A DNA stretch of 64,000 nt from Thermoproteota archaeon (lineage in GTDB: Archaea > Korarchaeota > Korarchaeia > Korarchaeales > Korarchaeaceae). Position numbers and translations under genes: made by a program. Positions 1,587 to 15,105 of this stretch are shown here, piece by piece (positions within the stretch are counted from its first letter, which is position 1; each line of letters begins with the position of its first letter). The notes beneath the pieces are model-generated. The model was not told the origin of the DNA, made no database searches, and saw only the letters and a list, made by a program, of their open reading frames with translations. The stretch covers positions 303,112-367,111 of the forward strand of contig JAOZFN010000007.1 of NCBI GenBank assembly GCA_027492205.1, in the 5' to 3' direction.

Positions 1587-1690
1587 TGGTGGACCGGGCG
1601 GGATTTGAACCCGCGAGCCTCCCGCAGATTAGGCCGGCCTAAAAGGCCAGCTTGCCAAGCGGGCGCTCTACCAGGCTGAGCTACCGGCCC
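1587..1690 (-). tRNA. tRNA-Ala(GGC) with 26-nt canonical 37/38 intron (1627-1652), encoded CCA
   Basis: GGGCCGGTAGCTCAGCCTGGTAGAGCG...CCCGC-TTGGCA[intron]T-GCGGG...GGTTCAAATCC...CCGGTCCACCA; BHB helix TTGG/CTAA with 3-nt bulges. Confidence 0.95.
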
Positions 1691-2375: not shown

Positions 2376-2773
2376 AGGCGCTGAGGCTCGTGAGGCTGGA
2401 GGGCCTGATCGGGAAGTTGGAGGAGCTGGTCAGGTCGGGGAGAGTGCCAGCATTCGAGGACACTGGGCCAGAGGACTACCCGGAGATGGACAGGGAGAGG
2501 CTCGAGGATCTCCTCGCGGAGGGCATCTACCACCTGGAGGAGGTCCCCGGGCGGATTCCGGCGCGGGCGGAGCTGGTGCTGAGGACCACGCTGGGGCTGC
2601 TGAGGTCTGCCAGAGAGGCCGACGACGAACTCCTGAGGAGGGCTCTGTTCATCTACGCGTTCTGCGAGGCCCTGGTCAGGGTCAGACCCAAGTCTAGCAA
2701 GCTGCTGAGGGCCTGCTGGGAGAGGATCGACTCAGAGGTGAGCAGAATTTCCGACGCCGTCTTCGCGCAGTGA
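2372..2773 (+). CDS. Hypothetical helical protein, coupled to the Panacea gene
   Basis: TTGA start/stop overlap; 133 aa ORF. Confidence 0.6.
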   Translation: MKALRLVRLEGLIGKLEELVRSGRVPAFEDTGPEDYPEMDRERLEDLLAEGIYHLEEVPGRIPARAELVLRTTLGLLRSAREADDELLRRALFIYAFCEALVRVRPKSSKLLRACWERIDSEVSRISDAVFAQ

Positions 2774-2777
2774 GGTC

Positions 2778-3473
2778 GTGGTGCTCGACACCTACTACTA
2801 CTTCAGGCCCTGGTCACTGGTTGAGCTGAGGGGGCATCTTCGTGGAAGGAGGGTGATCCTTATAGCTCCTCATCAGCTACGCACGATTCTGAGCCATCTA
2901 AACACTAGGCGGGTGGAGATCATCAACAGGTGGGATAGGAGGATCGTGGAGCGAGGTAGGGGGAGGCCCAAGCCCTGGCGAAGTCTAGCCAGGAAGCTTA
3001 AGGATGCGGATCTACTGTGCGCACTCTACCTAGGGTGGGAGCTCTCAAGAGAGCCCTTAGGTAGGATGCTCCGCATGAAGTCGGGGCTCAAGATAACGCG
3101 AGGAGATGTCGCTGACCTGAAGTATGGGCTGGACGAGTCTATAGAGGAGGAATCCCTGCGGGACTTTTTGAGGGAGCTGATTCGCGATCTCACCTCGGCT
3201 GATCTCGAGATCAGGAACGTAACGGTGAGTTCCAGGGAGGTCTCCCAGGTGAAGGCCAGGCTCATTGAAGAGCTGTGCGCCGCTCAGAATTGTCGTAAGA
3301 GCAAGCCCGACAGTGAAGATCTGATTCTCCTGCTGACCATTAACAAGCTGCGAGAGCGAGTGAGAGTGTATGCGATAGAGAGAGATAGGGGTGAGTGCTT
3401 CGCCTGCGCTCTGAGACATCTTCTCAAAACAGACCAAGCGTGGCGAGACAAGATTAGGATTGGACAGCTTTAG
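2778..3473 (+). CDS. Divergent PIN-domain protein (putative RNase toxin)
   Basis: N-terminal VLDT, then DSEDLILL and YAIERD acidic motifs in PIN order. Confidence 0.5.
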   Translation: MVLDTYYYFRPWSLVELRGHLRGRRVILIAPHQLRTILSHLNTRRVEIINRWDRRIVERGRGRPKPWRSLARKLKDADLLCALYLGWELSREPLGRMLRMKSGLKITRGDVADLKYGLDESIEEESLRDFLRELIRDLTSADLEIRNVTVSSREVSQVKARLIEELCAAQNCRKSKPDSEDLILLLTINKLRERVRVYAIERDRGECFACALRHLLKTDQAWRDKIRIGQL

Positions 3474-3904
3474 ATCCCAGCTTGCCTTACTATCTCCTCG
3501 TACCTCTTCTTCGTTAGCCTCTCTCCAGCTACGGTGACGAATCTTTTGGGCCTATACGGCTTTGAATACCTCCTTAGGCCCCTCAGCGGTATGACTAGAA
3601 GCTTCTTTGCCCTGGGCTTTCCCCTCACGTAGGCCGCCAACTCCTCTCTGTTGAGCATCAGCCTCCTCCCGTACTTCTTCACCGCCTCTTCTGGCTCAAG
3701 CATCTCCACCGCCTCCGCCGTCCCCTCTCCCACTATAGCCCTCACGTCCCCAGAGGCGTAGAACAGGATCTTGGAGCCTGGCCGCAGGTCCTTGTAGACC
3801 GTTGGCACCTTCACGAATACCGTCCTACCTTCGTCGAATATCCTGGAGATCAGCTCGCCGGGGAGCGGGAATATGGCTCCCACGATCTCATCGTTAGATG
3901 ACAT
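3470..3904 (-). CDS. DUF365 / ASCH-like (PUA superfamily) protein
   Basis: FPLP...RIFDEGRTVFVK...LRPGSKILFYAS...IVGEG pattern. Confidence 0.75.
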   Translation of the reverse strand: MSSNDEIVGAIFPLPGELISRIFDEGRTVFVKVPTVYKDLRPGSKILFYASGDVRAIVGEGTAEAVEMLEPEEAVKKYGRRLMLNREELAAYVRGKPRAKKLLVIPLRGLRRYSKPYRPKRFVTVAGERLTKKRYEEIVRQAGI

Positions 3905-3954
3905 CGGGTTGTTGGTTTCAAGTGATTAGGATAAAGGCTTGCAGTTGAAGAGAG

Positions 3955-6900
3955 CTAGGCAGTTCCTTCGAATATTCTCAGAGTCTCTTCGAGGGCTTCC
4001 AGCTCTTCTGAAGTTAGGTCGTAGAGCTGGGCTACCAGTTCGTCAATCTCGTCCTCAACCTCTCGTAGGGCTTCGATATCGCCTTCAGCGGCTAGGTTGT
4101 GAGCTTTTTTAGATAATTCCGCAAGATTCAAGTGAAGTGGGTTCTCTGTATCGAATTTGGGTACTCTTACATGTTCTAATATGTGCGTGGAGATCGCCGT
4201 TTCTATCGTGTACCCCGCGACTATCGCCCTTACAGGCGCCGAGTTCAGGACTGCAGATACGTAATGTGCCTCCAACTCGTTATTGAATGGTATGTAGGTA
4301 AGCTTGTGGTCTGGTAAGACTGGCTTCCTTCCTAAGAGTGGGTGTTCAATCGGTCCGATTACGGCGGCCTGAAAGAGGCCTTTCCCCGAGATCCTGCCAG
4401 AAACTTCTCTCCAAGCAACTTTAAATGTACTTATTGCTGGTTCGGCATTAAATATCCAGTAAAATGGCGGTATTCCTTCAATATTTTCAAGCCGTCTATC
4501 CCTGTAAGGTCTCAGCTTGGATCGGTAAGGCTCAGTGTTTCTTCTAACGAGTTCGTCAAAAAACTCAATGAAATATGAATAAGTCAGGGGATATTTAGTC
4601 CTCATTTCGACGGATGGTACTACCCTACCATCTTTTGTGAGGGGGAGTATCATGTAAGTAGATGGGTAAGCAATCCATCTCTTGAGGTCTCTCCCTCTAA
4701 CTAGAGGGTAAACCAGATCGGGCTCTACGACCGCTTCAACTGATTTTAGTTTCTTCTTGCTAATCTCTGACATGTTTCTGACTAGAATTCCTTCAGGCTG
4801 ACTGGAAAGTAGTTGGACCCAGTACACGCCATTTAGCCCTGGATGAACCCCTACGTAAGCTTTGTAGCTAGACTTACCTAACAGCTTGTAAATGCCCATA
4901 GATGCCATCTTACTAGTCAAAATCCAGGGGGCGGCGGCATCATAGCTGGTATTGTCTTTCTGTATCGGTTCTAATATCATCTCAACGCGGTTTGAAAGAC
5001 TGGCGACCTCTTCAATGTCGGCAGCGTTGGGATCGTATCCTTCTCCGGATTTTGACCAAACGATACACCTTACTGGAAAGTGAGATACGCCCTTTTTCAA
5101 GACTATTAGGGAGGTTCTGTTAGTAGCCCCCTCGAACGGACGCATTTCAACGAGGTCGTGTATAACGATTAACTCACACTTAGTTGCGAGGAATCGTCTG
5201 AAGCTGGATCCAGCTTTAGTCTTGAATACCGTGAAGGGGATTAACATGCTGAGCCTACCATTTTCATTCATGTATCTCTCGACGGAAGTAGTCACGAACA
5301 ACATGGCGATATCTCTGTTAATTCTACCTATCCCCCTCCCCCCTCCCTCAAAGAGACCGAACTTTGCCCACAAGTCTCGGGTGACCTCCCTGTAGTCCTC
5401 AGGAAGGCTCTCCCAGTTGATCCACGGGGGGTTCCCCACAACGTAGTCGAACCTTCCGACGAAGAGAGGCGCAAAGGAGTTTGCGAGTATCCTGAGCCAT
5501 ATCCTATCCTTCCCCTCTTCCTCCAGCTCCCTCAGCCTGTTGAACAGCGCAGCCAGGGCATCCACCTCTTCGGATGTGCACTCTACCTCCCTGGCCAGAA
5601 GCTGCCTGAACTGCTCCTCAGGATACCTGTTCCTCACGCAGTGCTCCATCACCCTGAGCACGTTGGCCAGCTCGCCCCTCTCCACCACGCCGGTGGGGAC
5701 CTCGAACTCCCCGACAACCGTCCTGAGCACGTACGAGGACTCCAGCAGCCTCGTCCTCTGCTCCACCAGGATCGAGTCGCAGAGGTACACGGGTATCACT
5801 ACCGGTTCCCTCCTCTCCCTGATCAGCGGTCCCAGGGTGAGTAGGTAGTTCGCCCTGGCCGCTATGACGGCCAGTGGGTTGAGGTCGAAGCCCACTATGT
5901 TCTCCGTCACCTTCTCCAGCACTTCCGCGGGGTCTAGGAACTCCTCCTCCGCTCTCTCCCTGACCCTCTTCAGGGCTAGCACCAAGAATGTCCCGGAGCC
6001 GCACGCGGGGTCTAGGAGCCTCTTGCTCGGGTCGCCGTCGTAGCCGACCTCGTTCAGCACAAGCTCCGCTAGCCAGTCAGGAGTGTAGAACTCGCCGAGG
6101 TCGTGTCTTATCCTCCTCGGAACCAGGTTCTGGTAGAGTTCCTTGAAGAGGTCCCTCACCCTCTCGGGCTCCAGCTCGGCCGTCCCTACCTCGTAGTCTG
6201 ACAGCCTCTGCACCACCCTGGCCAGGGCCCGCGCCAGCTCCCCGTCCCACTCGTTGAGGTACCACGAGAAGTAGTCTGCCTCCAGGAAGTTCAGTATTCC
6301 CAGCTGCCTGAAGACGCCCCCGTCCTCCAGCCTCGCCAGCTCGTCCCTCAGCCCCTCTGCGGAGGAGTAGTACGCGGACTCCAGCCTCCTCCAGTAGGAC
6401 TGGATCAGCGAGTCGCCGTAGAGCGCCGCAACCTCGGCCGCTATCAGCTTCATCAGCAGGGCATAGTAGGTGTGGATGGCGAAGAGGAGCCTCTCCGGAT
6501 CGGCGTCCCTCATCTCGTACTGCCTCTGGAGCCCCTCTATCTTCCTGCGGGAGTAGGCGCAGACCTGAGAAAAGACCCTCCTCCAGTCCTCGAACAGCAC
6601 CTCTGTCCTGGGAGATTGCGGATTCGAGAGCCTCTGATAGAGCACCCTTATCGCGTGCCTGGCTACGTCGCTCCTGGGGCCGAAGTCCGAGATGAGGAAC
6701 TGAGCGTCCAGCGGTTTCCTCCTAAGTCCTCTTAAGGCCTCCACGAGCTTGGAGAGAGCCCTGGCGGAGACGGAGTAGGGACCGTCACTGAGCCACTGCT
6801 TGTCTCGAGAGCGGTACCTCACGAAGCCAATCTGCCGCCCGTCTAGTACGACGCCGAAGTACCTACTGAACTCAGCCTCCCTCCCCTCAGCCAGGATGAT

Positions 6901-7200
6901 GATGTAGCTCCTGACCTGCGCCGCGGCGCCGGTGAAGCCTGAGCTGCTCGAGAGCGTGCCAGGCCGCTTGTACTCAATGACGACCTTCCCGTACAATGCG
7001 TCGGGCCTGACGCCCTCTGCGAGCGTCCTCTCGTGGGCGGGCTCCCAATGCAGCTCCAGCGCCTCGAAGACCTCCTTTAAGACGGCCTCGACTCGCGTCC
7101 TGAGCTCGGCCTCGTTGCGCGACTCGTCCGCGGCCCTGAGTATGGAGGCGGCCACCTGATCTAGGTCTATGGGTTTAGCTGGCAAGGCCCTCGGGGGCAT
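3955..7200 (-). CDS. Type IIG restriction-modification enzyme (nuclease + N6-adenine MTase + TRD)
   Basis: N-terminal RPDALYGKVVIEYK (PD-ExK), GEFYTP, motif I LLDPACGSGTF, motif IV NPPW, C-terminal TRD-like region; TATA TTTAAA at about 7218-7223. Confidence 0.92.
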   Translation of the reverse strand: MPPRALPAKPIDLDQVAASILRAADESRNEAELRTRVEAVLKEVFEALELHWEPAHERTLAEGVRPDALYGKVVIEYKRPGTLSSSSGFTGAAAQVRSYIIILAEGREAEFSRYFGVVLDGRQIGFVRYRSRDKQWLSDGPYSVSARALSKLVEALRGLRRKPLDAQFLISDFGPRSDVARHAIRVLYQRLSNPQSPRTEVLFEDWRRVFSQVCAYSRRKIEGLQRQYEMRDADPERLLFAIHTYYALLMKLIAAEVAALYGDSLIQSYWRRLESAYYSSAEGLRDELARLEDGGVFRQLGILNFLEADYFSWYLNEWDGELARALARVVQRLSDYEVGTAELEPERVRDLFKELYQNLVPRRIRHDLGEFYTPDWLAELVLNEVGYDGDPSKRLLDPACGSGTFLVLALKRVRERAEEEFLDPAEVLEKVTENIVGFDLNPLAVIAARANYLLTLGPLIRERREPVVIPVYLCDSILVEQRTRLLESSYVLRTVVGEFEVPTGVVERGELANVLRVMEHCVRNRYPEEQFRQLLAREVECTSEEVDALAALFNRLRELEEEGKDRIWLRILANSFAPLFVGRFDYVVGNPPWINWESLPEDYREVTRDLWAKFGLFEGGGRGIGRINRDIAMLFVTTSVERYMNENGRLSMLIPFTVFKTKAGSSFRRFLATKCELIVIHDLVEMRPFEGATNRTSLIVLKKGVSHFPVRCIVWSKSGEGYDPNAADIEEVASLSNRVEMILEPIQKDNTSYDAAAPWILTSKMASMGIYKLLGKSSYKAYVGVHPGLNGVYWVQLLSSQPEGILVRNMSEISKKKLKSVEAVVEPDLVYPLVRGRDLKRWIAYPSTYMILPLTKDGRVVPSVEMRTKYPLTYSYFIEFFDELVRRNTEPYRSKLRPYRDRRLENIEGIPPFYWIFNAEPAISTFKVAWREVSGRISGKGLFQAAVIGPIEHPLLGRKPVLPDHKLTYIPFNNELEAHYVSAVLNSAPVRAIVAGYTIETAISTHILEHVRVPKFDTENPLHLNLAELSKKAHNLAAEGDIEALREVEDEIDELVAQLYDLTSEELEALEETLRIFEGTA

Positions 7201-7462
7201 TGTATCGCGCTCGGTACTTTAAATGCCTAGTTAAGGCTGTAGGAACATGGGAAAGATTTCCTATTCACTGGCCGCAAGTCTCATGGGTAGAATTTCTTCC
7301 TGCACCTAAGCCACCTAGCTCGTCAGCTCTATTGGGCCAGCAAACGTTGTGGGCAGCAGATTCGGACAAACAGGTATTCTGATACCCCGAACTGTTGAAA
7401 AGAGAAAATATAACTGTTCTAGGGCAACTTTTATAAGGAATATAGCTGGAAACAAGAGTGTT

Positions 7463-8458
7463 ATGCAGGGGAACCCTTGGGCTAATCCAGGGATGGCCGT
7501 TAAAAAAGTACTCCTAAATACGGGTCTCTACCGGAAGGTCGAGGAGGAGTTCTTCGACCTGTTTGACCTGAAGACCAGCGGCGCCGAAGCAGTGCTGCTG
7601 GCCGCATATGGAAGTCACAGGTCGTTCTACCTTGTCGATGAAGACAGGGTGGCCATACCTCCCCGGGAAGAGGACCTGGTGGTTTGTCCTCCGGTGCCGC
7701 TTAGAGAACTGAGCCCAAGAGACGTTGTAAAAAGCCCAATGCCGACGGCTTGGCCCACTCACGATTGGGAACTCCTGAGAAGACTCCTAACCGGCGAGAA
7801 GTACGTTTTGCTGCGAGATGTCCGAGATGTCAGGAGTCTCCTAGAAAGAGTCAAGTCCGCAGGGATTGAACCTACTGACGTGCTCGTGGCTCCGGTTCTT
7901 TCAGATTTCAGGCCGGACTGGGAACCCGGCTTTCTAGTGTACCTTGCCGGATTGGCCTTGAGGTCCCGGGGTTACCTAGTGGCAGGGGAGGGTCCCGGTC
8001 CGCTGAGGTTCTTCGGTCCCGACCTGTGCGCCTTCAGAACCAGTCAATTCTGCGAGGGAGCCTTTCTACTGGAGCTTCTCCTAGGAAAGAAGTTGAAGAA
8101 AGGTTATTCAGAAGAGAGCGCTTGCGTTATAGAGGTGGAAGCTCAAAGGAGAATTTTAGACAGTAAGCACGGCGTGGCCCAGGCCCTGAAGTACGTTAAC
8201 TGGAGTGAAGGCCGTCTGGGCAAGGCTTTTGTCGCTGGCGCATTTCTCGAGGCTTATCAAATAGAAGAGGCAGTAAGGCGAGGATGCGGCGTTATATCTC
8301 TATCACCAGATGGCGATATTGTGTTTATAGATGCCAGAGATCTCTCCATCCAAGAACTCCAGCACGAATTTCTACAGTACGTGAGTGATGTAATCTCTCA
8401 GCTTGAATTACGCGCTGAGAGGTGTCCATTCTTACCTCGAAGGGAAGAGGTATCCTAG
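7463..8458 (+). CDS. Putative PD-(D/E)xK restriction-like nuclease
   Basis: C-terminal GPDLCAF...VIEVEAQ...GVAQALKY; TTTTATAA at 7429-7436 favours ATG 7463 (or 7493). Confidence 0.6.
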   Translation: MQGNPWANPGMAVKKVLLNTGLYRKVEEEFFDLFDLKTSGAEAVLLAAYGSHRSFYLVDEDRVAIPPREEDLVVCPPVPLRELSPRDVVKSPMPTAWPTHDWELLRRLLTGEKYVLLRDVRDVRSLLERVKSAGIEPTDVLVAPVLSDFRPDWEPGFLVYLAGLALRSRGYLVAGEGPGPLRFFGPDLCAFRTSQFCEGAFLLELLLGKKLKKGYSEESACVIEVEAQRRILDSKHGVAQALKYVNWSEGRLGKAFVAGAFLEAYQIEEAVRRGCGVISLSPDGDIVFIDARDLSIQELQHEFLQYVSDVISQLELRAERCPFLPRREEVS

Positions 8459-8459
8459 A

Positions 8460-9498
8460 TCAGACATCTACAAGTTGACGGTAGTCTCTAATTCCGGCGG
8501 CCCTATCCAAGGCAACTCCTACTATCCTCTTTACCTCTCTGAGGTTTCTCTCCAGCTGATCGAAAGCGCTCATCCAAGGATTCCCGGTCTTGCGTTCCTT
8601 GGTAAAGTAGAGGAGCGTGTACCCTTCACTTCCCGAGTACACCTCTAACTTCTTCACCCTCATTGAGCTTTCTCTCAAAGCCCTCACGTACGCATCGACG
8701 ACCTTGTGGTAGGGGACTTCACCTAGCCTGAGGCGCTCCCTCCATAGAGCCTCATAGGCGGGCCCTAAGAACTTGGCACACTTGCTGGCCGGATCGGGTG
8801 GTCCTTTGAATTCTCTCCCTAGTGCCCTAGCTAGACCCACATGATTCAGCAGTACCATGACATCGGCTCCTCTGTCTACCAAGTCCATTAGGGTCTCATA
8901 GTAAACATTCGCTCCTTCGTTATCTGCGAACACTAATGCGTGCTCTCCTCTCTCCGGAGCGACTTCCTGCCAACCTTCGTTACAATCACCGTGACGAATA
9001 TCCACGCGAGGTATCGCTTGCTCGCCATTAGTCTCGGAGCCTATGGGCGTCACAAGATCATTCTCAAACATCCACTGAACCCTGGCCCTCAGGGCGTCTG
9101 CTCTGGCCTCTTTGATCTCAAATCCAACTACCTCATCAAAGGGTCCGTTTAGCTTCCCGCTGAGAATCAACGGGGTTGACCCTACTAGAAATTAGGGGCT
9201 CCCCGCTGGCCTCGAGTTTGTACAGCCTACAACCAGCTAGAAGATCAATGAACTTTATTTTCCTCGGCCAGATCGTTCTCCTTTGCTCTACACGTTTTCT
9301 CTGCTGGGACCTCATCACCCGTACATAGACATCGGCCATCCATGCCAGCGCGACGAGTTTTACGGCAGTTTTAGGCGAAGTTACCTCGTAGAACTCTTCT
9401 GAAACGCGGGATAGTTCTTTCCCTAACGTGATTATGTTCTCAAACTTAGAGGAAAGCCAGTCTAGGAGACTCGGATACCTGCTCCTTACTCTACGCAA
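8460..9498 (-). pseudogene. Three-Cys-motif partner (TcmP-like) SAM-dependent methyltransferase, split by a +1 frameshift near 9190
   Basis: Frame 1: KTAVKLVAL...FIDLLAGC. Frame 2: LVGSTPLIL...GFEIK...HGDCN...LVFADNEG. Joined, these give a TcmP-type protein of about 345 aa. Confidence 0.7.
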
Positions 9499-10463
9499 TT
9501 GCACCTGACCCCGCTCCACTCGGGATACGTGCCAGGCTCGGGCAGGAGATCTGAGAGCCTGCGCCACATCTCCGGCGTCTCCTTACACAGGGCAACGTCG
9601 CCTGAGTAGCCTAGCCTCCTCAGCTCCTCCAAAACGTACCTGTACATCTCCTCCCTCAGGTCAGGCTTGATCTTCAGTCCCCATCCGGTTTTCTCCCCGC
9701 CTCTCAGGTATTCGTGCCAGCTTCTATCCTTGGCAAACTTAACGGTCTTCCACAGTCCCCTGAGCGTCCCCAGAGTGATCCTGCTTGGCTCAAGCTCGTA
9801 CCTGTGCAGCGCGTCTTCCACCAGCTTCGAGTACTCCCCCCTCCACCCAGGGACCGGTATCATGGGGTCGAGCCTCAGCCTGAGCTCGAAGCCCTCTCTC
9901 TGCACGAGCCTGGCGGCGGCCATCCTGTCCTCCGGGCCAGGGGTCCCCCTCTCGTAGAGCCTGGCTGGCTTTGAAGCGTTGACCGAGAAGCTGACTACTA
10001 TAGCCTCCCTTGGGCCGCTCCACTCCAGTAGAGGCTGCACGTGCCTCACGCCGCCCTTGGTAACCATAAGGAACCTGTGGCCTGGGTGGGTCTCTAGGAG
10101 ATCTGAGATCACCTCTAGGAGCAGGTGAGTCCACTCAGGAATGGCCAGGCTGTCGCTCAGCTCCCCTGTATTCAGGAGCAGCCTCTCGCCCCTGGAGTCG
10201 GCCCAGGACAGGAGGTCCTCTAGCTCCGCCTTCAGCCCCTCTAGGTCCTTGAGCCTAGGGGTCTTGTTACCGAAGAACGTGCCCTGGAGATAGCAGTAGG
10301 AGCAGCCAAACGGGCAGCCGTTCGCCCACTTCAACTCCCAGAAGTGGGGGCAGACGATGTCGGAGGGCGTCTTGGCGAAGTAGACCACGTAGCGGGAGTT
10401 CTGCCACTTGAGTAGTGGCGACATAGGTTTTAGCTCGATGAAGTCCTCCTCCGTTCTCCTCAC
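9486..10463 (-). CDS. Spore photoproduct lyase (SplB)-like radical SAM protein
   Basis: GCPFGCSYCYLQ (CxxxCxxC), NTGELSDSL, LRLDPMIP, LCKET, C-terminal CNC; SD GAGGAGG. Confidence 0.85.
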   Translation of the reverse strand: MRRTEEDFIELKPMSPLLKWQNSRYVVYFAKTPSDIVCPHFWELKWANGCPFGCSYCYLQGTFFGNKTPRLKDLEGLKAELEDLLSWADSRGERLLLNTGELSDSLAIPEWTHLLLEVISDLLETHPGHRFLMVTKGGVRHVQPLLEWSGPREAIVVSFSVNASKPARLYERGTPGPEDRMAAARLVQREGFELRLRLDPMIPVPGWRGEYSKLVEDALHRYELEPSRITLGTLRGLWKTVKFAKDRSWHEYLRGGEKTGWGLKIKPDLREEMYRYVLEELRRLGYSGDVALCKETPEMWRRLSDLLPEPGTYPEWSGVRCNCVE

Positions 10464-10498
10464 GGCCTCCTCTTCTGACTATAATGTGAGTGGATCGT

Positions 10499-12403
10499 TT
10501 AAGCGTTTGCAAGCCTAAGTAGGCAAAAGTATTCTCTGATCATCTCCAGCCGCTCTCTTGACTGAGGGGTCTCTATTAGGAAAGATTTGCCCGTCCCCCC
10601 AGAAGATAGGATAACGTCGCAGATCGTCTCTTCTATGAATCGCCTCCTATCAGAACTCTCGGAGAGTTCCTCCCAGGACTTCCTCTGCTCTTTAGAGAGG
10701 AGGAGTGACTTCCCGGTCTTAGACAGGGAGCCGAGACCCTCCCTTTCCAGAATCCTGAGCACCGCCATGAACCTCCCCACCGGAACTTGGGGAGGTGTGA
10801 GTCCGCTAGAGGAGTACACGGCGTCGAGTCTCGAGATCAGTATCTTATAGAGGGTGGAAACGCGCTTGCTGCTCTTGTCTTTTACCTCTCTCCTGAGAGC
10901 CTCGAGGAAGCTGGAGACTGACGCTCGCAGCAGGACGCGACTTTTCTCTTCTTCCCCTCCCTCTGCGACTACCTCTTGGACGGCTTGGGGGGTCAGCAGG
11001 AAGGCCAGAACCTCTCTGAGATCCCTTTCAAATGCTCCATACTTATCCAGAAACTCTGACCTCCACTCGCCCCTTAGGAGCAGGCTGAGCTTGAGCAGGA
11101 AGGGGTCCACCTCTATAATCCCAAGGGCATGGCCAGCCTTGGAGAACTCGGCCTCTAGTGCTGTCCGCTCATCTGGATACCATTCAGCAATGGAGAACAA
11201 CAGAACTGGAACATTTCTAAGCATGTTCAAGAGCTGATCCCGGTCTCTCTGGGATCTCTGCCAGGACCTCCCCGTCTTTATCTCCACAGCGATGCGTTGG
11301 ACGAGTCTGTTGCCCTTCTCTCCGGCTTCCGGTTTGTAGGTCCAGACGAGGTATTGGGCATCGGTGACGGCCCCTGGCAGCGACAGCCTGTCCCTCGAGA
11401 GAGTCGCCAAGTAGTCTAGCTTGGTCTCCCCGAGGCTCACAGTGACTGGAATAGCCCTGAGTTTCTTCCACATGAACTCCCTCCAGAGCTCTTCCACCTG
11501 CCTGCCGAGGTCAACGCTTGATCCCATCTCGGCTTCTGGATCAATATTATCCAGGATCTCCTGAAGCATTTCGGTGATGTACTTTATCACACCTCCTATC
11601 TCCCACATTAAAGCTCTGTCCTCGGCTTTCTTCCTCAGCAAGGGGTAGAGCACGCTGAAGTGTTTGTCCAGACTCACGCGATATGAATCCTTGTAGGCCC
11701 TGAAGAGGGCCATTACCTTGAGGGTTGCGTCCCGGGCGGCCTCAACTCTCTCGTCGTCAGGCATGCTCAGCCTGTACTCTCTAGACCTCGCAAGGAGTCT
11801 ATTAGCAAGCGCCCGATCTTTCTCAAACTCGGCTCTGACTCGTTTTGACATCATTAGGATGGCTGACCCTCTTGGCGGTCTATCCGACGAGCCCTCCGTT
11901 AGCCACCGAACTATATCTGCCAGATCCTCAAACCTCTTCCGGTCCCCCCTAGCCAAATCCCCAAGAAGCTGGTCCAATTCGTCCACTATCAGTACGACAG
12001 GCTTCTCTGCAGGTATAGAGACGATCTGTTGTAAAATCAATTCTCTTACGTCACACACCGGATCTAGGAAGACCCTCCTGACCTCGACTCCCCTCTTCTG
12101 AAGGAATTCCTTCAAGACAAAGCCCAGCTGAGACTTGCCGGATCCATACTCCCCGACAACCGAGACTATAGCCCCACGCCAGTCTCTATCCTTGAGATAA
12201 TTGAAGATAGCCCCATTTACTTGTCTGAGCCTTCTGACGTTTACGAAAAAGTCCTTGAGTTGATCTAGGGGGAACTCAATGGGCCTCCTATCAGACCACG
12301 ACTCTAGTACCTTGCCTAGCGAGCTGGGGTTGTACTTGGAGTATGTTTTAGAGAGGTTATAGAACTCCTCCCGTGCCTTGGAGAGAGATTCAGGATGAAT
12401 CAC
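10499..12403 (-). CDS. P-loop (AAA-like) ATPase with C-terminal PD-(D/E)xK-like nuclease domain
   Basis: Walker A GEYGSGKS, Walker B LIVDELD, later TDAQ...IAVEIKTG; GTGA overlap with the upstream gene gives start 12403. Confidence 0.75.
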   Translation of the reverse strand: MIHPESLSKAREEFYNLSKTYSKYNPSSLGKVLESWSDRRPIEFPLDQLKDFFVNVRRLRQVNGAIFNYLKDRDWRGAIVSVVGEYGSGKSQLGFVLKEFLQKRGVEVRRVFLDPVCDVRELILQQIVSIPAEKPVVLIVDELDQLLGDLARGDRKRFEDLADIVRWLTEGSSDRPPRGSAILMMSKRVRAEFEKDRALANRLLARSREYRLSMPDDERVEAARDATLKVMALFRAYKDSYRVSLDKHFSVLYPLLRKKAEDRALMWEIGGVIKYITEMLQEILDNIDPEAEMGSSVDLGRQVEELWREFMWKKLRAIPVTVSLGETKLDYLATLSRDRLSLPGAVTDAQYLVWTYKPEAGEKGNRLVQRIAVEIKTGRSWQRSQRDRDQLLNMLRNVPVLLFSIAEWYPDERTALEAEFSKAGHALGIIEVDPFLLKLSLLLRGEWRSEFLDKYGAFERDLREVLAFLLTPQAVQEVVAEGGEEEKSRVLLRASVSSFLEALRREVKDKSSKRVSTLYKILISRLDAVYSSSGLTPPQVPVGRFMAVLRILEREGLGSLSKTGKSLLLSKEQRKSWEELSESSDRRRFIEETICDVILSSGGTGKSFLIETPQSRERLEMIREYFCLLRLANA

Positions 12404-13128
12404 AGCTCCCACCTCGCCGAGATCTTGGCCCTGCTGGGTATCACGAGCTCGCAGTAGGTCTCCCCGGTCACCCTGTCCTGCCACGTGGAGAACACCCTGC
12501 CCCCGAGACCGGGCGGTAACCTGTCTAGGTCCTCGGCGGACTCGAGGACGTCCCTGTAGGGCTCCAAGACCGGTATCCTCACGAGTCCCCGCTTCCAGAG
12601 CGACACTAGGATGTCCCGCACCCCGTCCCCGTACACCCTAGCCAGCGTGCCGTAAGTCACCGCACCCCTAGACCTCACGTCCTCGAGCACGGCCTCCTCC
12701 AGGGAGGTCGTGAGCACGGGAACCCTCCTCTCCCGGACGAGGTTGAGCTCAACCAGCCACCTGGCCAAGGCGCGGGCCTCCGTAGTCGTGACCTCGACTC
12801 CGAGTGAGGCGAGCGCCGCGGACAGAGAGCCCGGAGTGAGGGGGACGGAACTCCGGGTGAGCGCCCCTACGGCCTCGGCGAGCCTGAACTCCCTCATTAT
12901 GGCGTTTGCTAGGGACTCTCGGAAGTCATCGAGGGACCTTAGGTCGTCGACTCTTTGGAGCACCCACTCGAGGGTCTTGACGTACCGTGAGGCCGTCCTG
13001 GTGGACTTCACCCCGAGGATCTCGGCCGCGTCCTTCTCCCCCTTCAGCCTGCTTCTAGCGAGGGCAAGTCTGTAGAGTCCACTAATCCTGGTGGGATAGA
13101 AGCGGCTTGACCGGCGCATGATCCGCAC
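12400..13128 (-). CDS. Winged-helix/HTH DNA-binding protein, first gene of the operon
   Basis: DAAEILGVKSTRTASRYV HTH plus a second wHTH-like segment (VTYGTLARVYG...LWKRGLV); TATA-like TATTTA at about 13142-13147. Confidence 0.6.
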   Translation of the reverse strand: MRIMRRSSRFYPTRISGLYRLALARSRLKGEKDAAEILGVKSTRTASRYVKTLEWVLQRVDDLRSLDDFRESLANAIMREFRLAEAVGALTRSSVPLTPGSLSAALASLGVEVTTTEARALARWLVELNLVRERRVPVLTTSLEEAVLEDVRSRGAVTYGTLARVYGDGVRDILVSLWKRGLVRIPVLEPYRDVLESAEDLDRLPPGLGGRVFSTWQDRVTGETYCELVIPSRAKISARWEL

Positions 13129-13338
13129 CTCAGAGGGCCCCTAAATATTGGAAAAAGTTTGTGCATCAGTCTGGGGATTGCCTATCTGGACTGAGCGGAG
13201 AGCGCGTGATCACGACATCGTCCCTCCGAAGGATGCGCAGAAGCCCAAGCCCGCTGAATCTGCCTTGGTTCAGGGGCGCTGGACGGCCGCTGCGTTCACG
13301 CGGGCCGCGCTCCCTGCCGAGCCAACCCAACTCTTTTT

Positions 13339-13363
13339 GTAGTACGTACTACCCACTACCCAC
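13339..13363. promoter_or_regulatory. Putative vapBC operator: 14-bp palindrome plus CTACCCA direct repeat
   Basis: GTAGTACGTACTAC (13339-13352) and CTACCCA x2 immediately before ATG 13365. Confidence 0.55.
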
Positions 13364-13364
13364 G

Positions 13365-13604
13365 ATGGGCGAGGTCGTCAGGGTCACGAGGAAGTTTCAG
13401 ATGACGATCCCCAGGAGGGTAAGGGAGGCGCTGGGGATCAGGGTGGGCGATAGGCTGGAGGTGGATGTCGAGGGAGATCGAATCGTCGTGAGGCCCCTGA
13501 GGCCCAGGGTAGAGGACCCGGTGGAGGCGCTCCTGTCGCTTGTGAGGGAGCCCGTGGACGTGGATGCGGTGAGGCTCGTAGAGGAGTCCTGGGGCGAGGA
13601 CTGA
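13365..13604 (+). CDS. vapB: AbrB/MazE-family antitoxin
   Basis: VRVTRKFQMTIPRRVREALGIRVGD. Confidence 0.9.
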   Translation: MGEVVRVTRKFQMTIPRRVREALGIRVGDRLEVDVEGDRIVVRPLRPRVEDPVEALLSLVREPVDVDAVRLVEESWGED

Positions 13605-13606
13605 TC

Positions 13607-14164
13607 TTGGGAGGCGCGGTCCGAGGGAGCCCGTGGAGGGCGGGGTCCGAGGGTGAGGGGGGGCGAGAACTAGTGGAGGCCTATGTGGACACGAACGTAT
13701 ACGTCTACGTGGCCCTCAGGCACCCGGAGTTCGGCGAACTCTGCGCGCGCATACTGAGGGCCGTTGTGTCCGGCGAGCTGAGGGCCGCCGGTTCCGACCT
13801 GGTGGCCATTGAGCTCCTCGGCTCCCTGGCCAGGGTGGGCCCCGAGGTGGCCAGGGGCGCGCTCGAGGCCTACCTGGCGATGCCCGTCAGGAGGCTCGAG
13901 GTCGACGAGAGGGTCCTCAGGGCGGCCGCCCTGATCAACGGGGTGGTGAACGTCGGTTACGACGCGATCCACGCCGCGCTCATGCTCCTGAACGGGGTCG
14001 GAGCCGTCGTGACCAACGACCTGGGGGACTGGGTCAGGCTGGCCAAGAGGCTGACGGACGTGGCCTCAACAATCGAGGAGGGTGAAATCCAGGTGAGGTC
14101 CCGAGAGCTGGCGGTGATCAGCCCGAGGTCCTTCCCCCGGCCCGTGGAGGTCGGCTCGGCGTGA
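13607..14164 (+). CDS. vapC: PIN-domain toxin
   Basis: YVDTNVYVY...YDAIHAA...TND. Confidence 0.9.
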   Translation: MGGAVRGSPWRAGSEGEGGRELVEAYVDTNVYVYVALRHPEFGELCARILRAVVSGELRAAGSDLVAIELLGSLARVGPEVARGALEAYLAMPVRRLEVDERVLRAAALINGVVNVGYDAIHAALMLLNGVGAVVTNDLGDWVRLAKRLTDVASTIEEGEIQVRSRELAVISPRSFPRPVEVGSA

Positions 14165-14239
14165 GCCCGTGGGGGTTGGCGGCTTCATCCGAGAATTTAT
14201 ATCTCTCCGACAATAAAACCTCTTCTGAGGAATGCACAA

Positions 14240-14491
14240 ATGTCTGAGGTGGTGCTGAGGGTCGGGAAGAGGGGGGAGATCTACACGACCAGGGAGCTGA
14301 GGGAGCTGGCGGGCATCAGGGAGGGCGGGAGGGTCAGGGCCAGGGTCGAGCGGGGCAGGGTGATCATCGAGCCCCTGCCCACCTTGGAGGAGCTCATCCG
14401 GGAGCCGGTGGTGGAGGTGAGCCCGGAGGAGGCCGAGAGGCTGAGCGAGGAGGCCCAGAGGGAGGTCGGCTCCCGCGATCTCGGGGGGTGA
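14240..14491 (+). CDS. vapB: AbrB-family antitoxin
   Basis: LRVGKRGEIYTTRELRELAGIREG; TTTTATAT TATA upstream. Confidence 0.88.
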   Translation: MSEVVLRVGKRGEIYTTRELRELAGIREGGRVRARVERGRVIIEPLPTLEELIREPVVEVSPEEAERLSEEAQREVGSRDLGG

Positions 14492-15105
14492 ACGCGCTGC
14501 CGGAGGTGAGGGCCGGGCCCGGGCTCACTCCGGGCGAGCCACCGGGTGCGGGTGAATCTGACTCTGTGGCCGGGGCCGGCGTCAGGTTTGGCGCCGAGGC
14601 CGAGGCTGGGAGCCGTGCAGAGGCGGGACCGGAGCTGATCCTGGACACCACGTACCTCCTCCCCATATTCGGCGTCGGCGTGGGGCTCCCGAGGTACGAG
14701 TCCCTGTTCCCCAGGCTCCTGGAGACGTTGAGCGTCGGGTACAACCCCGTCTCCCTCGTGGAGGCCAAGTGGATTTCTCTCGGCCTGGCCAGGGATCACC
14801 CGGACAGGCGCGACAGGCTCCTCTCGGCCTACCGCAGGGGCCTGGCCGCGATCCTGGCCGACGAGAGGATCTCGGCCACCGAGCTCACCGGCCCGGAGGT
14901 GGAGGCCGTTGCGGACCGGCTCCTCCTCGAGTTCGGGCTGGCGGACTACTTCGACAGGGTGATCTACGCGACGGCCGTCGTCGGGAGCGCGGCCCTGCTG
15001 ACGGAGGACGGGGAGCTCCTGAGGCTCGCCAGATCGCCGGAGGCCCCGAGGCCGAGGGAGGCGCTGAGGTGGGCCGACGTTCCCGGGAGGCTCCTCGGCG
15101 ATTGA
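14488..15105 (+). CDS. vapC: PIN-domain toxin with low-complexity N-terminal extension
   Basis: ILDTTYLLP...SLVEAKW...DYFDRVIYATA...LTED; GTGA overlap. Confidence 0.88.
   Translation: MNALPEVRAGPGLTPGEPPGAGESDSVAGAGVRFGAEAEAGSRAEAGPELILDTTYLLPIFGVGVGLPRYESLFPRLLETLSVGYNPVSLVEAKWISLGLARDHPDRRDRLLSAYRRGLAAILADERISATELTGPEVEAVADRLLLEFGLADYFDRVIYATAVVGSAALLTEDGELLRLARSPEAPRPREALRWADVPGRLLGD

What the first reader, a model, noticed from the sequence alone, without database searches (positions are those of the whole stretch)
7463..13128. Candidate new DNA-modification defence system: wHTH, ATPase/nuclease, SPL-like radical SAM, TcmP-like MTase, facing a PD-(D/E)xK nuclease
Seen: four tightly coupled minus-strand genes (GTGA overlap, 35-nt gap, overlap) whose last stop lies 1 nt from the stop of a convergent restriction-like nuclease, all between a Type IIG R-M gene and vapBC modules. 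Known: TcmP normally partners the DUF5131 three-Cys protein, and SplB-family radical SAM enzymes do radical chemistry on DNA bases. A thermophilic, non-sporulating archaeon has no obvious need for spore photoproduct repair. Inference: the SPL-like enzyme replaces DUF5131; with TcmP it writes an unusual self-mark on DNA, while the ATPase-nuclease and convergent nuclease restrict unmarked DNA. I do not recognise this five-gene combination as a named system.
Basis: partly seen in the sequence, partly recalled or inferred. Interest (0 to 1): 0.85.

Follow-up and report, generated by a model that had tools for sequence, protein, structure and literature searches.

The report
Broken TcmP/radical-SAM pair among unrelated neighbours
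The five genes are not one defence system: the only conserved unit is a widespread, still uncharacterised pair, a radical-SAM enzyme resembling a DNA-repair enzyme plus a methyltransferase-shaped partner, and the partner gene is broken in this genome.

Summary
The five-gene "system" does not hold up.

- **wHTH + ATPase pair.** The 242-aa protein and the ATPase form a separate pair. It occurs in 17 of 21 sister-genus genomes without any radical SAM or TcmP gene beside it. In a same-genus relative a different cassette sits in its place, upstream of a conserved rSAM leader.
- **Conserved core.** The real unit is two genes: an SPL-family (SplB-like) radical SAM enzyme plus TcmP, which has an RlmJ-like methyltransferase fold. 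Of 80 loci from archaea and bacteria, the two are adjacent in 44 and fused in 9.
- **Not a true SPL.** The enzyme scores 59 bits against a 400-bit cut-off. The catalytic Cys of SPL aligns with an invariant Glu, and four further Cys are nearly invariant.
- **Context.** In bacteria the pair often sits beside LexA, RecA/RecX or inside ImuB–DnaE2 cassettes. Twelve of 81 loci, counting the window and three other loci of its six-locus clade, have a Type IIG/ISP-type gene nearby.
- **State in this window.** TcmP is divergent and frameshifted. A second TcmP remnant elsewhere in the genome is also broken.
- **Convergent gene.** It has a PD-(D/E)xK-type fold and belongs to a rare family, seen beside TcmP in one other archaeon.

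My reading is a DNA-directed radical enzyme pair, more likely lesion reversal than self-marking. This scan has noted the pair before in other genomes.

The parts
3955..7200 (-). Type IIG restriction-modification enzyme (context, a separate system)
   Evidence: PADLOC REase_MTase_IIG, 1090.9 bits, residues 15-1079 of 1081. Pfam Eco57I, N6_Mtase and MmeI_Mtase.
7463..8458 (+). Convergent protein of a rare family. Its C-terminal half has a PD-(D/E)xK (restriction-endonuclease-like) fold. The ORF is open from 7349; homologues begin near residue 50.
   Evidence: No Pfam, NCBIfam, PADLOC or PHROGs family. Only 26 representatives at E<=0.001 among 1.84 billion proteins. Model pLDDT 91.7. VIA-align: 3dnx Z 9.6, PaqCI 8.4, AF1548 7.3, NucS-type 2vld 6.8. 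A homologue in two pieces lies directly upstream of TcmP in L019. In G054 the homologue is not next to the module.
8460..9170 (-). TcmP-like gene, C-terminal fragment (frame B)
   Evidence: Aligns with residues 104-319 of the G005 TcmP (E 4e-8) and with the G014 TcmP (E 1e-9). Scores 69 bits on my own TcmP HMM. PADLOC PDC-M41A, E 0.0019. One relative at 79% identity in 5.8 billion proteins.
9136..9567 (-). TcmP-like gene, N-terminal fragment (frame A). The real start is probably a GTG or TTG near 9500-9510, overlapping the rSAM stop.
   Evidence: Aligns with residues 10-107 of the G005 TcmP, including the D-L-x-A-G motif (E 6e-7). Of 7 listed differences to a related contig, 6 fall on third codon positions of this frame (counted by hand).
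9136..9195 (-). Frameshift zone of the TcmP-like gene (a +1 shift is needed between the frame-B stop upstream and the frame-A stop)
   Evidence: Sequence read. The two fragments are collinear with intact TcmP. No public contig laid covers this zone.
9486..10463 (-). SPL-family (SplB-like, COG1533-type) radical SAM enzyme, intact
   Evidence: Pfam SPL 49.4 bits and Radical_SAM 33.1 bits. NCBIfam spore photoproduct lyase equivalog 59.3 bits against a cut-off of 400. Profile match to Geobacillus SPL structures, E 2e-21. CX3CX2C plus C38, C293, C321, C323 and E101 are conserved in 73-76 of 76 family members.
10464..10540 (-). rSAM leader, conserved with the same-genus genome G002. It contains a TTAAAC (TATA-like) element and overlaps the last ~13 codons of the ATPase ORF.
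   Evidence: Alignment of the window with L014; sequences read. The C-terminal extension of the ATPase is absent from sister-genus homologues.
10499..12403 (-). P-loop ATPase with a D...E-I-K nuclease-like motif and a C-terminal region. A separate module.
   Evidence: Only weak P-loop family matches. Walker A, Walker B and D...EIK columns are invariant in 5 sequences. Homologues at 38-46% identity in 17 of 21 sister-genus genomes and 0 of 4 same-genus genomes. 13 proteins, the query included, in the 5.8-billion-protein search.
12400..13128 (-).
   Evidence: No family in four libraries. Found upstream of the ATPase homologue in 11 of 11 sister-genus loci at 46-57% identity. GTGA overlap with the ATPase start.
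13161..14164 (+). vapBC-like toxin-antitoxin pair (context). Syntenic with G002.
   Evidence: Pfam MazE_antitoxin and PIN. Homologues flank the variable cassette in L014.

Best explanation
The region is a mosaic in a low-GC island beside a tRNA-Lys gene. It is not one system.

**Shown**
- The only evolutionarily conserved unit inside it is a two-gene module: an SPL-family radical SAM enzyme (9486-10463) plus TcmP (8460-9567, frameshifted here).
- This pair is kept together across archaea, bacteria and some viral contigs in three gene orders and as a fusion, with TcmP at the N-terminus.
- The 242-aa protein and the ATPase/nuclease-like protein are an unrelated pair. They landed upstream of the rSAM's own leader.
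- The Type IIG enzyme and the vapBC pairs are separate neighbours.

**Inferred mechanism**
- TcmP is an RlmJ-like SAM-binding fold whose catalytic tetrapeptide reads D-P-x-G. I propose it binds nucleic acid, flips out the target nucleotide(s) and hands them to the radical SAM enzyme.
- The enzyme would cleave SAM at its CX3CX2C cluster and use the 5'-deoxyadenosyl radical to abstract a hydrogen from a DNA base or sugar.
- Bacterial copies are wired into LexA, RecA-RecX and ImuB-DnaE2 units, and SplB-like genes are documented SOS genes. The most likely chemistry is therefore light-independent direct reversal of a cross-link-type DNA lesion other than classical spore photoproduct.
- An invariant Glu takes the place of SPL's hydrogen-donor Cys, and a second four-Cys metal site is probable.

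**State in this genome**
- The module is probably impaired: TcmP is frameshifted, and the genome's other TcmP, next to a DUF5131 gene, is truncated.

**Odds:** mosaic architecture about 0.85; pair acts on DNA about 0.7; lesion repair rather than marking about 0.45.
For: **Pair is conserved**
- Of 80 genome loci found with the rSAM profile, TcmP is fused in 9, adjacent (250 bp or less) in 44 and farther away in 1. It is not found in 20, and not found with a contig end close by in 4. No rSAM ORF was called in 2.
- Gene orders among the adjacent cases: 18 upstream on the same strand, 15 downstream on the same strand, 11 convergent.
- Fusion needs 8 changes on the rSAM tree.
- The neighbours in G005 and G014 pass TIGR04474: 103.1 and 75.4 bits against a cut-off of 53.

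**TcmP fold**
- Model pLDDT 90.3.
- Best structural matches are RlmJ and DUF519, E 1.6e-7 to 2e-6, TM 0.45-0.53.
- The TcmP profile hits an RsmD-like methylase (E 8e-4) and RlmJ (E 7e-3).

**The wHTH + ATPase pair is separate**
- No homologue in the 80 loci.
- Absent from the G005, G014 and G002 loci.
- Present as a pair in 11 of 11 sister-genus loci examined, with no rSAM or TcmP match in their roughly 1.5-kb flanks.
- In 3 of 4 longer stretches it sits beside an MFS transporter, an SDR, glycine-cleavage P subunits and NAD kinase.
- G002 has a 139-aa protein and a ParA-like ATPase at the same place, between vapBC and the rSAM.
- About 75 nt upstream of the rSAM start are conserved between the two genomes. 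They include the last codons of the window's ATPase ORF, an extension that its homologues lack.

**Damage-response context (all bacterial)**
- LexA in 4 loci, directly upstream of the module in 3.
- RecA with RecX in 2 loci.
- DnaE2 in 6 loci and a Y-family polymerase in 3, flanking the module.
- SplB (COG1533) is reported as SOS-regulated in several phyla (PMC8565304, passages).
- SplB is linked to ImuB-C (PMC3765255, abstract and passages).
- Archaeal SplB-like genes lie next to the PCNA-binding repair protein NreB (PMC4929162, passages).

**Not a true SPL**
-.

**TcmP broken**
-.
Against: - No experiment exists for any member of the pair, and no lesion or product is known.
- Archaea have no LexA, so the SOS argument is carried over from bacteria. 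The SOS-context loci fall in few clades: 5 changes on the tree, five loci being close Acidobacteriota kin.
- In the window's own clade of six loci, all four that have enough flank carry an Eco57I-type methyltransferase gene within 5 kb. This fits a defence or modification role at least as well.
- TcmP + DUF5131 is catalogued by PADLOC as a phage-defence candidate.
- The rSAM occurs on 7 viral contigs.
- 20 loci have the rSAM without TcmP, so the enzyme may not need it.
No matched control set of random loci was run.
- The frameshift could be an assembly error. The related contig shows third-position differences, which fits a gene under selection until recently.
Confidence: 0.55

Rival explanations
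1. The TcmP-radical SAM pair, here perhaps with the convergent PD-(D/E)xK-fold protein, is a DNA-modification or defence module. The enzyme pair writes an unusual mark on DNA, or on phage DNA. It works with, or in the manner of, the Type IIG/ISP restriction-modification enzymes it so often neighbours.
For: - An Eco57I/MmeI/ISP-type methyltransferase-nuclease gene lies within 8 kb of the module in 12 of 81 loci, counting the window. It is within 500 bp and on the same strand in L028, L039, L041, L065 and L077, and 91 bp away in L050.
- The association needs 9 changes on the rSAM tree, so it arose repeatedly.
- All four evaluable members of the window's clade have one.
- L079 has an Hma-type methylase and ATPase next to the module.
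- TcmP is PADLOC candidate PDC-M41A/M30A.
- The module is on viral contigs.
- ParB_N domains are adjacent or fused in L025, L066, L078 and P0112.
- The convergent protein recurs beside TcmP in L019.
Against: - No restriction partner is conserved with the pair.
- The rSAM matches no PADLOC model.
- LexA, RecA and ImuB-DnaE2 wiring is hard to reconcile with a constitutive self-mark.
- In Chloroflexota the module is a stable resident between mtnA and mtnP, with the Type IIG gene present in some genomes and absent in others.
- Defence islands gather unrelated mobile genes, and I ran no control for chance adjacency.
- The PDC candidates are untested: searches found no functional study.
Confidence: 0.25
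2. One reading: all five genes form one new modification-restriction system. The wHTH protein regulates, the rSAM and TcmP mark self DNA, and the ATPase-nuclease and the convergent nuclease cut unmarked DNA.
For: - The genes are tightly spaced.
- Both putative effectors have nuclease-like features.
- In the same-genus genome G002 the slot upstream of the rSAM again holds a small protein with a D...E-V-K motif and an ATPase. This could be read as interchangeable effector cassettes.
Against: - The 242-aa/ATPase pair is absent from all 80 rSAM loci and from the orthologous loci of G005, G014 and G002.
- It is nearly universal in a sister genus without the rSAM or TcmP beside it, and there it has housekeeping neighbours.
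- The rSAM keeps its own conserved leader.
- TcmP is broken here.
Confidence: 0.06
3. The pair acts on RNA (rRNA or tRNA), not DNA, as TcmP's closest structural relative RlmJ does.
For: The best fold and profile matches of TcmP are rRNA methyltransferases, RlmJ and RsmD-like. Some loci have translation-related neighbours: alanyl-tRNA synthetase and TrmO in L022, EF-G in L070.
Against: The rSAM's nearest characterised relative acts on DNA. The recurrent partners are DNA proteins: LexA, RecA, RecX, DnaE2, Y-family polymerase, ParB_N, a NucS-like nuclease and R-M enzymes.
Confidence: 0.08

Closest known systems
TcmP + DUF5131 ('three-Cys-motif') gene pairs: NCBIfam TIGR04474 with Pfam PF07505; PADLOC candidates PDC-M41 and PDC-M30
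   Same: - The same partner family: the G005 and G014 neighbours pass TIGR04474 and hit PDC-M41A.
- A two-gene layout with a Cys-rich, radical-SAM-superfamily enzyme.
- RadicalSAM.org lists DUF5131 as Megacluster-5-2 and SPL as 5-3 (PMC9477430, one passage read).
- Untested function.
   Different: - The enzyme here is an SPL-family protein with CX3CX2C, not DUF5131.
- hhalign finds no relation beyond the Cys motif, and the rSAM hits no PADLOC model.
- In L035, L048 and L069 both enzymes flank one TcmP.
- The window's TcmP fragments miss the curated cut-offs.
SOS-regulated SplB-like radical SAM genes (COG1533) of non-sporulating bacteria
   Same: The same Pfam family, SPL PF20903. The same LexA, ImuB and DnaE2 contexts that I saw in the related loci (PMC8565304 and PMC3765255, passages).
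   Different: The passages I read do not mention a TcmP partner or fusions. The window is archaeal and has no LexA. No substrate is known for either.
Spore photoproduct lyase (SplB) of Bacillus/Geobacillus, PDB 4fhc and relatives
   Same: Radical SAM core with CX3CX2C. Profile match E 2e-21 over about 180 residues.
   Different: - The equivalog cut-off is missed by far: 59.3 against 400 bits.
- The hydrogen-donor Cys (mutated in entries 4fhg and 4rh0) aligns with an invariant Glu.
- Four further Cys are nearly invariant.
- It has an obligate-looking partner protein.
- That SPL itself lacks those four Cys is recalled, not tested.
RlmJ (23S rRNA m6A2030 methyltransferase) / DUF519
   Same: The best structural match of the TcmP model. 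It shares the D-x-x-A-G-x-G and G-S-P-L-I-A motifs.
   Different: About 14% identity. TcmP has D-P-x-G where N6-adenine methyltransferases have (D/N)-P-P-(Y/F) (that consensus is recalled). TcmP has extra N- and C-terminal helices. No methyl transfer has been shown.
Archaeal SplB-like genes adjacent to nreB (MacNeill 2016, PMC4929162)
   Same: Archaeal SPL-family enzymes of unknown substrate, proposed to repair other cross-links (passages read).
   Different: A different partner, NreB rather than TcmP. I did not test whether the window's enzyme belongs to that subgroup.

Membership tests
Spore photoproduct lyase proper (NCBIfam TIGR04070 equivalog) | Score above the curated equivalog cut-off | tested here: not met
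   59.3 bits against a cut-off of 400. TIGR03886 scores 32.2 against 437.55.
Spore photoproduct lyase proper | Conserved hydrogen-donor cysteine (Cys140 of the Geobacillus enzyme; the role is recalled) | tested here: not met
   In the HMMER alignment to 4fhg and 4rh0, the position that is mutated in those entries aligns with E101. E101 is Glu in 76 of 76 family members.
Radical SAM superfamily / Pfam SPL family (PF04055, PF20903) | CX3CX2C cluster motif and a score above the Pfam gathering cut-off | tested here: met
   PF20903 49.4 bits against 27; PF04055 33.1 against 29.5. C50, C54 and C57 are present in 75 of 76 members, the other row being a gap.
TcmP (NCBIfam TIGR04474) | Score above the curated cut-off (53 bits) | tested here: not met
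   Neither window fragment gives a match at E<=10. A six-frame search of the whole genome finds none. The intact neighbours in G005 and G014 score 103.1 and 75.4 bits.
TcmP (by homology) | Collinear similarity to bona fide TcmP and the family's near-invariant residues | tested here: inconclusive
   The N fragment aligns to TcmP residues 10-107 and the C fragment to 104-319. My own HMM gives 19 and 69 bits. Of the near-invariant columns, K, D, the first G and Y are kept. The second G of motif I is Arg, the Ser of G-S-P is Glu, and the Pro of D-P is Asn; that last change is also seen in the intact L049 protein. The reading frame is broken.
PADLOC candidate system PDC-M41 / PDC-M30 | Both components present: A = TcmP, B = DUF5131 | tested here: not met
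   A is only a weak hit, E 0.0019. B is absent, and the rSAM matches no PADLOC model. A DUF5131 gene exists elsewhere in the genome, on contig C2, with a truncated TcmP remnant beside it.
PD-(D/E)xK nucleases (convergent protein, 7463-8458) | Restriction-endonuclease-like fold | tested here: met
   The VIA-align list is dominated by such nucleases: Z 9.6, 8.4, 7.3 and 6.8 over model residues ~143-328. Foldseek gives only weak matches, best E 2e-3. The Z values are middling by the tool's own note.
PD-(D/E)xK nucleases (convergent protein) | Catalytic D ... (D/E)-x-K triad | tested here: inconclusive
   Conserved D187 and E224-x-E226 are present, but there is no conserved Lys at the third place. 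Activity cannot be judged.
Type IIG restriction-modification enzymes (3955-7200) | Full-length match to a Type IIG model with the gamma-class N6-adenine methyltransferase domain | tested here: met
   PADLOC PDLC03630, 1090.9 bits, positions 10-1100 of 1100. Pfam Eco57I and N6_Mtase.
SOS (LexA) regulon member | LexA operator upstream or a lexA-linked operon | not testable with these tools
   The window is archaeal. LexA linkage was seen only in bacterial relatives.

The most novel reading that the evidence does not exclude
TcmP plus the SplB-like enzyme would be a two-subunit, sometimes fused, radical-SAM machine for DNA that is new to biochemistry. An RlmJ-like base-flipping subunit would feed an SPL-like enzyme. 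That enzyme carries a second four-Cys metal site and a Glu in place of SPL's hydrogen-donor Cys. Depending on lineage, the machine would either reverse cross-link lesions in the dark in anaerobes, or write a radical-derived DNA mark used together with Type IIG/ISP enzymes. In this genus the slot upstream of it would hold exchangeable ATPase-plus-nuclease effector cassettes.
Probability: 0.2. Interest if true: 0.8.

Novelty: new variant of a known kind. Interest (0 to 1): 0.42.

Why it matters
SplB-like radical SAM genes are among the most widespread SOS-linked genes with no known substrate. Archaeal copies have been an open question since at least 2016 (PMC4929162).

The work here gives a concrete handle for biochemistry. 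One large subfamily almost always travels with, or is fused to, an RlmJ-like partner. It has lost SPL's catalytic Cys and has gained four invariant Cys. The natural next move is to reconstitute an intact pair or a natural fusion.

It also bears on how the PADLOC 'TcmP + DUF5131' defence candidates should be read. The same partner protein sits in LexA, RecA and ImuB-DnaE2 units, so a DNA-damage role has to be tested alongside phage defence.

For this window the practical result is negative. The five-gene system is an accident of neighbourhood, and the local copy is probably broken.

Tried and rejected
- **Complex prediction.** The G005 rSAM with its TcmP (alignments A6 and A2) gave no verdict: score 0.00, mark 0.32. 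This is no evidence either way.
- **Public runs.**
  - Four runs held only small shares of the stretch's sampled words (0.15, 0.15, 0.07, 0.00), and no RNA holder was listed.
  - The laid contigs do not cover 8952-9200, so the frameshift could not be checked.
  - One 250-nt contig is identical over 8431-8657 and departs from the window at 8431. I cannot explain it.
  - The loose end upstream of the rSAM start, compared by eye, is the reverse complement of the G002 leader read. Those contigs therefore come from a G002-like strain.
- **ESM Atlas look-up of the convergent protein.** Closed or not held.
- **Metagenome neighbourhood search for the convergent protein.** I did not pursue it. Instead I searched five genomes that hold the module; 2 of 5 had the family, and it was adjacent to the module in one.
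- **hhalign of the rSAM profile against one DUF5131 sequence.** No relation beyond the Cys motif.
- **PHROGs.** No family for any of the window's proteins.
- **PDB profile searches.** The ATPase profile gave only P-loop matches. The 242-aa protein's profile gave only a marginal wHTH repressor match, E 0.23.
- **Same-genus genomes.** No relative of the TcmP fragment or of the convergent protein in four genomes. One of them is only 72% complete.
- **Sigma-70 promoter and terminator scan.** Not informative for an archaeon.
- **Literature.** Searches for TcmP, DUF5131, 'three-Cys-motif partner protein', PDC-M30/M41, COG1533, Gp37Gp68, PF07505 and TIGR04474 found no functional study of the pair.
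- **Programmed frameshift or a functional split of TcmP.** Considered and rejected for lack of any support. The break falls inside the Rossmann fold, and no relative shows the same split.

Full report
**1. What is in the sequence**

ORF listing gives these minus-strand frames:
- 12400-13128 (242 aa);
- 10499-12484 (ATPase);
- 9486-10463 (radical SAM, rSAM);
- two overlapping frames, 9136-9567 and 8460-9170.

- GTG at 12403-12401 overlaps the TGA at 12402-12400.
- 35 nt separate the ATPase stop from the rSAM start.
- One base separates the two convergent stops.

The flanks are also as described:
- 3955-7200 is a full-length Type IIG enzyme (PADLOC 1090.9 bits).
- 13161-14164 is a MazE/AbrB-type antitoxin plus a PIN protein.
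- GC falls to 0.46-0.60 between about 3.5 and 12.5 kb, against 0.63-0.68 on either side.
- A tRNA-Lys gene lies at 1591-1677.

The setting therefore looks like an acquired island.

**2. Family assignments**

The rSAM passes Pfam SPL and Radical_SAM. It misses NCBI's spore-photoproduct-lyase equivalog by far: 59.3 against 400 bits.

The two TcmP-like frames, the 242-aa protein and the convergent protein match nothing in Pfam or NCBIfam, even at E 10 for NCBIfam. PADLOC gives only a weak PDC-M41A hit for the C-terminal TcmP fragment and P-loop-level hits for the ATPase. PHROGs gives nothing.

**3. The TcmP-like gene is real but broken**

The nearest rSAM orthologues, G005 (68% identity) and G014 (45%), each have a convergent neighbour. 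Those neighbours pass TIGR04474 at 103.1 and 75.4 bits, cut-off 53.

The window's N fragment aligns to residues 10-107 of the G005 TcmP. Its C fragment aligns to residues 104-319. This is one gene with a +1 shift just after the G-x-P-L-I motif.

The gene is very divergent:
- about 24% identity to the G005 TcmP, although the two rSAMs are 68% identical;
- three near-invariant residues changed;
- a single relative, at 79% identity, in the 5.8-billion-protein search.

Six of seven listed differences to a related public contig fall on third codon positions of the N-fragment frame (counted by hand). The gene was therefore under selection until recently. No laid contig covers the shift itself, so an assembly error is not excluded.

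The genome has no TIGR04474 match anywhere. On contig C2 a DUF5131 gene is followed by a ~100-aa TcmP remnant that runs into a vapBC-like pair. Both TcmP copies of this organism are broken.

**4. The conserved unit is two genes**

A profile of the rSAM (A1) retrieved 80 loci from one-genome-per-species contigs. About 25 are archaeal and the rest bacterial. I called ORFs with a simple script and scanned them with a TcmP HMM built from 23 unfused neighbours.

| TcmP relative to the rSAM | Loci (of 80) |
|---|---|
| Fused | 9 |
| Adjacent, within 250 bp | 44 |
| 3 kb away | 1 |
| Not found | 20 |
| Not found, contig end within 300 bp | 4 |
| No rSAM ORF called by my script | 2 |

The adjacent cases use three arrangements: 18 upstream on the same strand, 15 downstream on the same strand, 11 convergent. 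On a quick maximum-likelihood tree of 76 rSAMs, fusion needs 8 changes.

Seven viral contigs also carry the rSAM. Three of them have two tandem copies and a convergent TcmP.

Repeated fusion and rearrangement with retained linkage is strong evidence that the two proteins work together. A complex prediction gave no verdict and is not used.

**5. The other three genes do not belong to the pair**

The 242-aa protein and the ATPase:
- They have no homologue in any of the 80 loci or next to the rSAM in G005, G014 or G002.
- The ATPase is found at 38-46% identity in 17 of 21 genomes of a sister genus. It is found in 0 of 4 genomes of the window's own genus, and once weakly elsewhere; 19 of 43 genomes overall, the window's own included.
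- In all 11 sister-genus loci fetched, the 242-aa homologue sits directly upstream, and no rSAM or TcmP match was found in their roughly 1.5-kb flanks.
- In 3 of 4 longer stretches the pair has the same housekeeping neighbours: an MFS transporter, an SDR, glycine-cleavage P subunits and NAD kinase.
- The family is tiny: 13 proteins, the query included.

The same-genus genome G002 (rSAM 90% identical over the 162 residues on its contig):
- The same vapBC pair and the same rSAM flank a different cassette, a 139-aa protein and a ParA-like ATPase.
- About 75 nt upstream of the rSAM start are conserved between the two genomes, including a TTAAAC element.
- In the window that stretch encodes the last ~13 codons of the ATPase, a C-terminal extension that the sister-genus homologues lack.

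The ATPase pair therefore looks like an insertion upstream of an rSAM unit that has its own leader.

The convergent protein:
- It belongs to a rare family: 26 representatives in 1.84 billion proteins.
- Its model is confident, pLDDT 91.7.
- Its C-terminal half resembles restriction-endonuclease-fold proteins, with Z 9.6 to about 5 and a list dominated by such nucleases. Foldseek alone is weak.
- The conserved acidic residues are D187 and E224-x-E226, without the usual Lys.
- A homologue in two pieces lies directly upstream of TcmP in a Desulfurococcales genome, L019. In another genome with the module it lies elsewhere.

I treat it as a possible accessory, not a fixed part.

**6. What the two core proteins look like**

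TcmP:
- The model of the G005 protein (with alignment A2) has pLDDT 90.3.
- RlmJ and DUF519 are its best structural matches.
- The sequence profile also reaches an RsmD-like methylase and RlmJ.
- Near-invariant residues are a Lys in the N-terminal helix, D-x-x-A-G-x-G, G-S-P, D-P and a Tyr.

The rSAM:
- Its profile matches Geobacillus SPL structures at E 2e-21.
- The residue that is mutated in the C140 variant entries aligns with E101, which is Glu in 76 of 76 members.
- C38, C293, C321 and C323 are Cys in 75, 76, 73 and 74 of 76 members, beside the CX3CX2C motif.
- A second metal or cluster site is a reasonable inference.

**7. Context of the pair elsewhere**

I ran Pfam on 90 neighbours and BLAST from annotated seeds over all ORFs. 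They give two recurrent settings.

(a) DNA-damage genes, in bacteria only:
- LexA in 4 loci, directly upstream of the module in 3.
- RecA-RecX upstream in 2 loci.
- DnaE2 in 6 loci and a Y-family polymerase in 3, with the module lying between them in Acidobacteriota.
- RadC-N-type genes in 5 loci.

This agrees with print:
- splB/COG1533 is described as SOS-regulated in several phyla (PMC8565304, passages).
- SplB-like genes are linked to ImuB-C (PMC3765255, abstract and passages).
- Archaeal SplB-like genes next to nreB are discussed as possible cross-link repair enzymes of unknown substrate (PMC4929162, passages).

(b) Restriction-modification genes:
- Eco57I/MmeI/ISP-type genes lie within 8 kb in 12 of 81 loci, counting the window. 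Six are directly adjacent.
- The association needs 9 changes on the tree.
- In the window's own clade of six loci (support 100), the four with enough flank all have one. The other two sit on contigs of about 2.8 kb.

Further observations:
- DUF5131 lies next to the same TcmP in 3 loci.
- ParB_N is adjacent or fused in 3 loci and in one database protein.
- A NucS-like protein takes TcmP's place in G032.
- In Chloroflexota the module sits between mtnA and mtnP homologues, genes of methylthioadenosine/5'-deoxyadenosine salvage (that functional reading is from general knowledge).

Caveats: kin are not independent, no matched control for chance adjacency was run, and the gene calls are crude.

**8. 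Reading**

The architecture claim, a mosaic with a two-gene core, is well supported.

For function I commit to a DNA-directed radical enzyme pair. TcmP would present the target and the rSAM would do hydrogen abstraction. Lesion reversal is the single most likely role (about 0.45) because of the repeated SOS wiring and the family's one characterised member. DNA marking or defence is a serious rival (about 0.25), and it fits the archaeal clade's neighbours better.

In this genome the module is probably not fully functional.

**9. Novelty**

Three things are already known:
- TcmP + DUF5131 pairs are catalogued but untested (PADLOC).
- SplB-like SOS genes are in print.
- This scan has already noted TcmP with SPL-like or DUF5131 enzymes in at least 15 other genomes, among them a look-alike of this rSAM.

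I found no paper describing the TcmP/SplB-like pairing, its fusions, the Glu-for-Cys change or the four extra Cys. The library lacks most subscription journals.

The window adds a broken, divergent copy and a clear counter-example to reading neighbours as one system.

Noticed in passing
G000 contig C2, locus L123 1000-3417: A DUF5131 gene (PF07505, 73.6 bits) is followed by a ~100-aa TcmP N-terminal remnant (own HMM, E 3.6e-11). The remnant runs into a vapBC-like pair. The genome's second TcmP is therefore also broken, and no TIGR04474 match exists genome-wide.
   Followed up: partly
window 10499-13128; loci L096-L110: The 242-aa protein and the ATPase (Walker A/B, D...EIK motif) form a conserved pair of unknown function. 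It is present in 17 of 21 genomes of a sister genus. In 3 of 4 longer stretches it has housekeeping neighbours. The family is tiny, 13 proteins.
   Followed up: partly
L014 (G002) 1177-2450: In the same-genus genome, the slot between vapBC and the rSAM holds a different cassette: a 139-aa protein with a D...E-V-K motif and a ParA-like ATPase. The slot looks like a hot spot for ATPase-plus-nuclease-like cassettes.
   Followed up: partly
window 1591-1677 and 3500-12500: A tRNA-Lys gene lies next to a stretch of lowered GC (0.46-0.60 against 0.63-0.68). That stretch holds the Type IIG gene, the convergent gene, the module and the ATPase pair. It is probably an integrated island; its ends were not mapped.
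   Followed up: no
window 3470-3904 (-): A DUF365 protein lies 50 nt downstream of the Type IIG gene on the same strand, with weak hits to PADLOC candidates PDC-M11A/B. It may be an accessory of the restriction enzyme.
   Followed up: no
window 1947-2773 (+): A SocA/Panacea-domain antitoxin-like protein (142 aa) overlaps a 133-aa ORF of no family. This may be another toxin-antitoxin pair.
   Followed up: no
L036, L039, L028, L041, L042, L045, L055 (Chloroflexota and relatives): The TcmP-rSAM module sits between an IF-2B-family (MtnA-like) gene and a PNP_UDP_1 (MtnP-like) phosphorylase gene. A Type IIG gene is inserted in some genomes. This may be a link to salvage of 5'-deoxyadenosine, or only lineage synteny.
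   Followed up: no
L035 10125-10964, L048 9988-10720, L069 770-1459: One TcmP gene is flanked by both an SPL-like radical SAM gene and a DUF5131 gene (PDC-M41B, 349.6 bits in L035). The two enzymes can therefore coexist rather than replace each other.
   Followed up: partly
viral contigs L116-L118: Three related viral contigs carry two tandem copies of the SPL-like enzyme and a convergent TcmP. Two other viral contigs (L119, L120) carry the enzyme with no TcmP found.
   Followed up: partly
L011 (G005) 3680-6998 and 10268-14517: The orthologous module in G005 is surrounded by several other genes: a viperin-like radical SAM protein (354 aa), a 387-aa protein with a Type I/IIG N-terminal nuclease domain, a 294-aa protein of no family and a 537-aa Eco57I-type methyltransferase.
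   Followed up: no
window 8431 (runs X1, X2): A 250-nt public contig identical to 8431-8657 departs from the window at 8431, inside the last codons of the convergent gene. A close strain may lack that junction. Unexplained.
   Followed up: no
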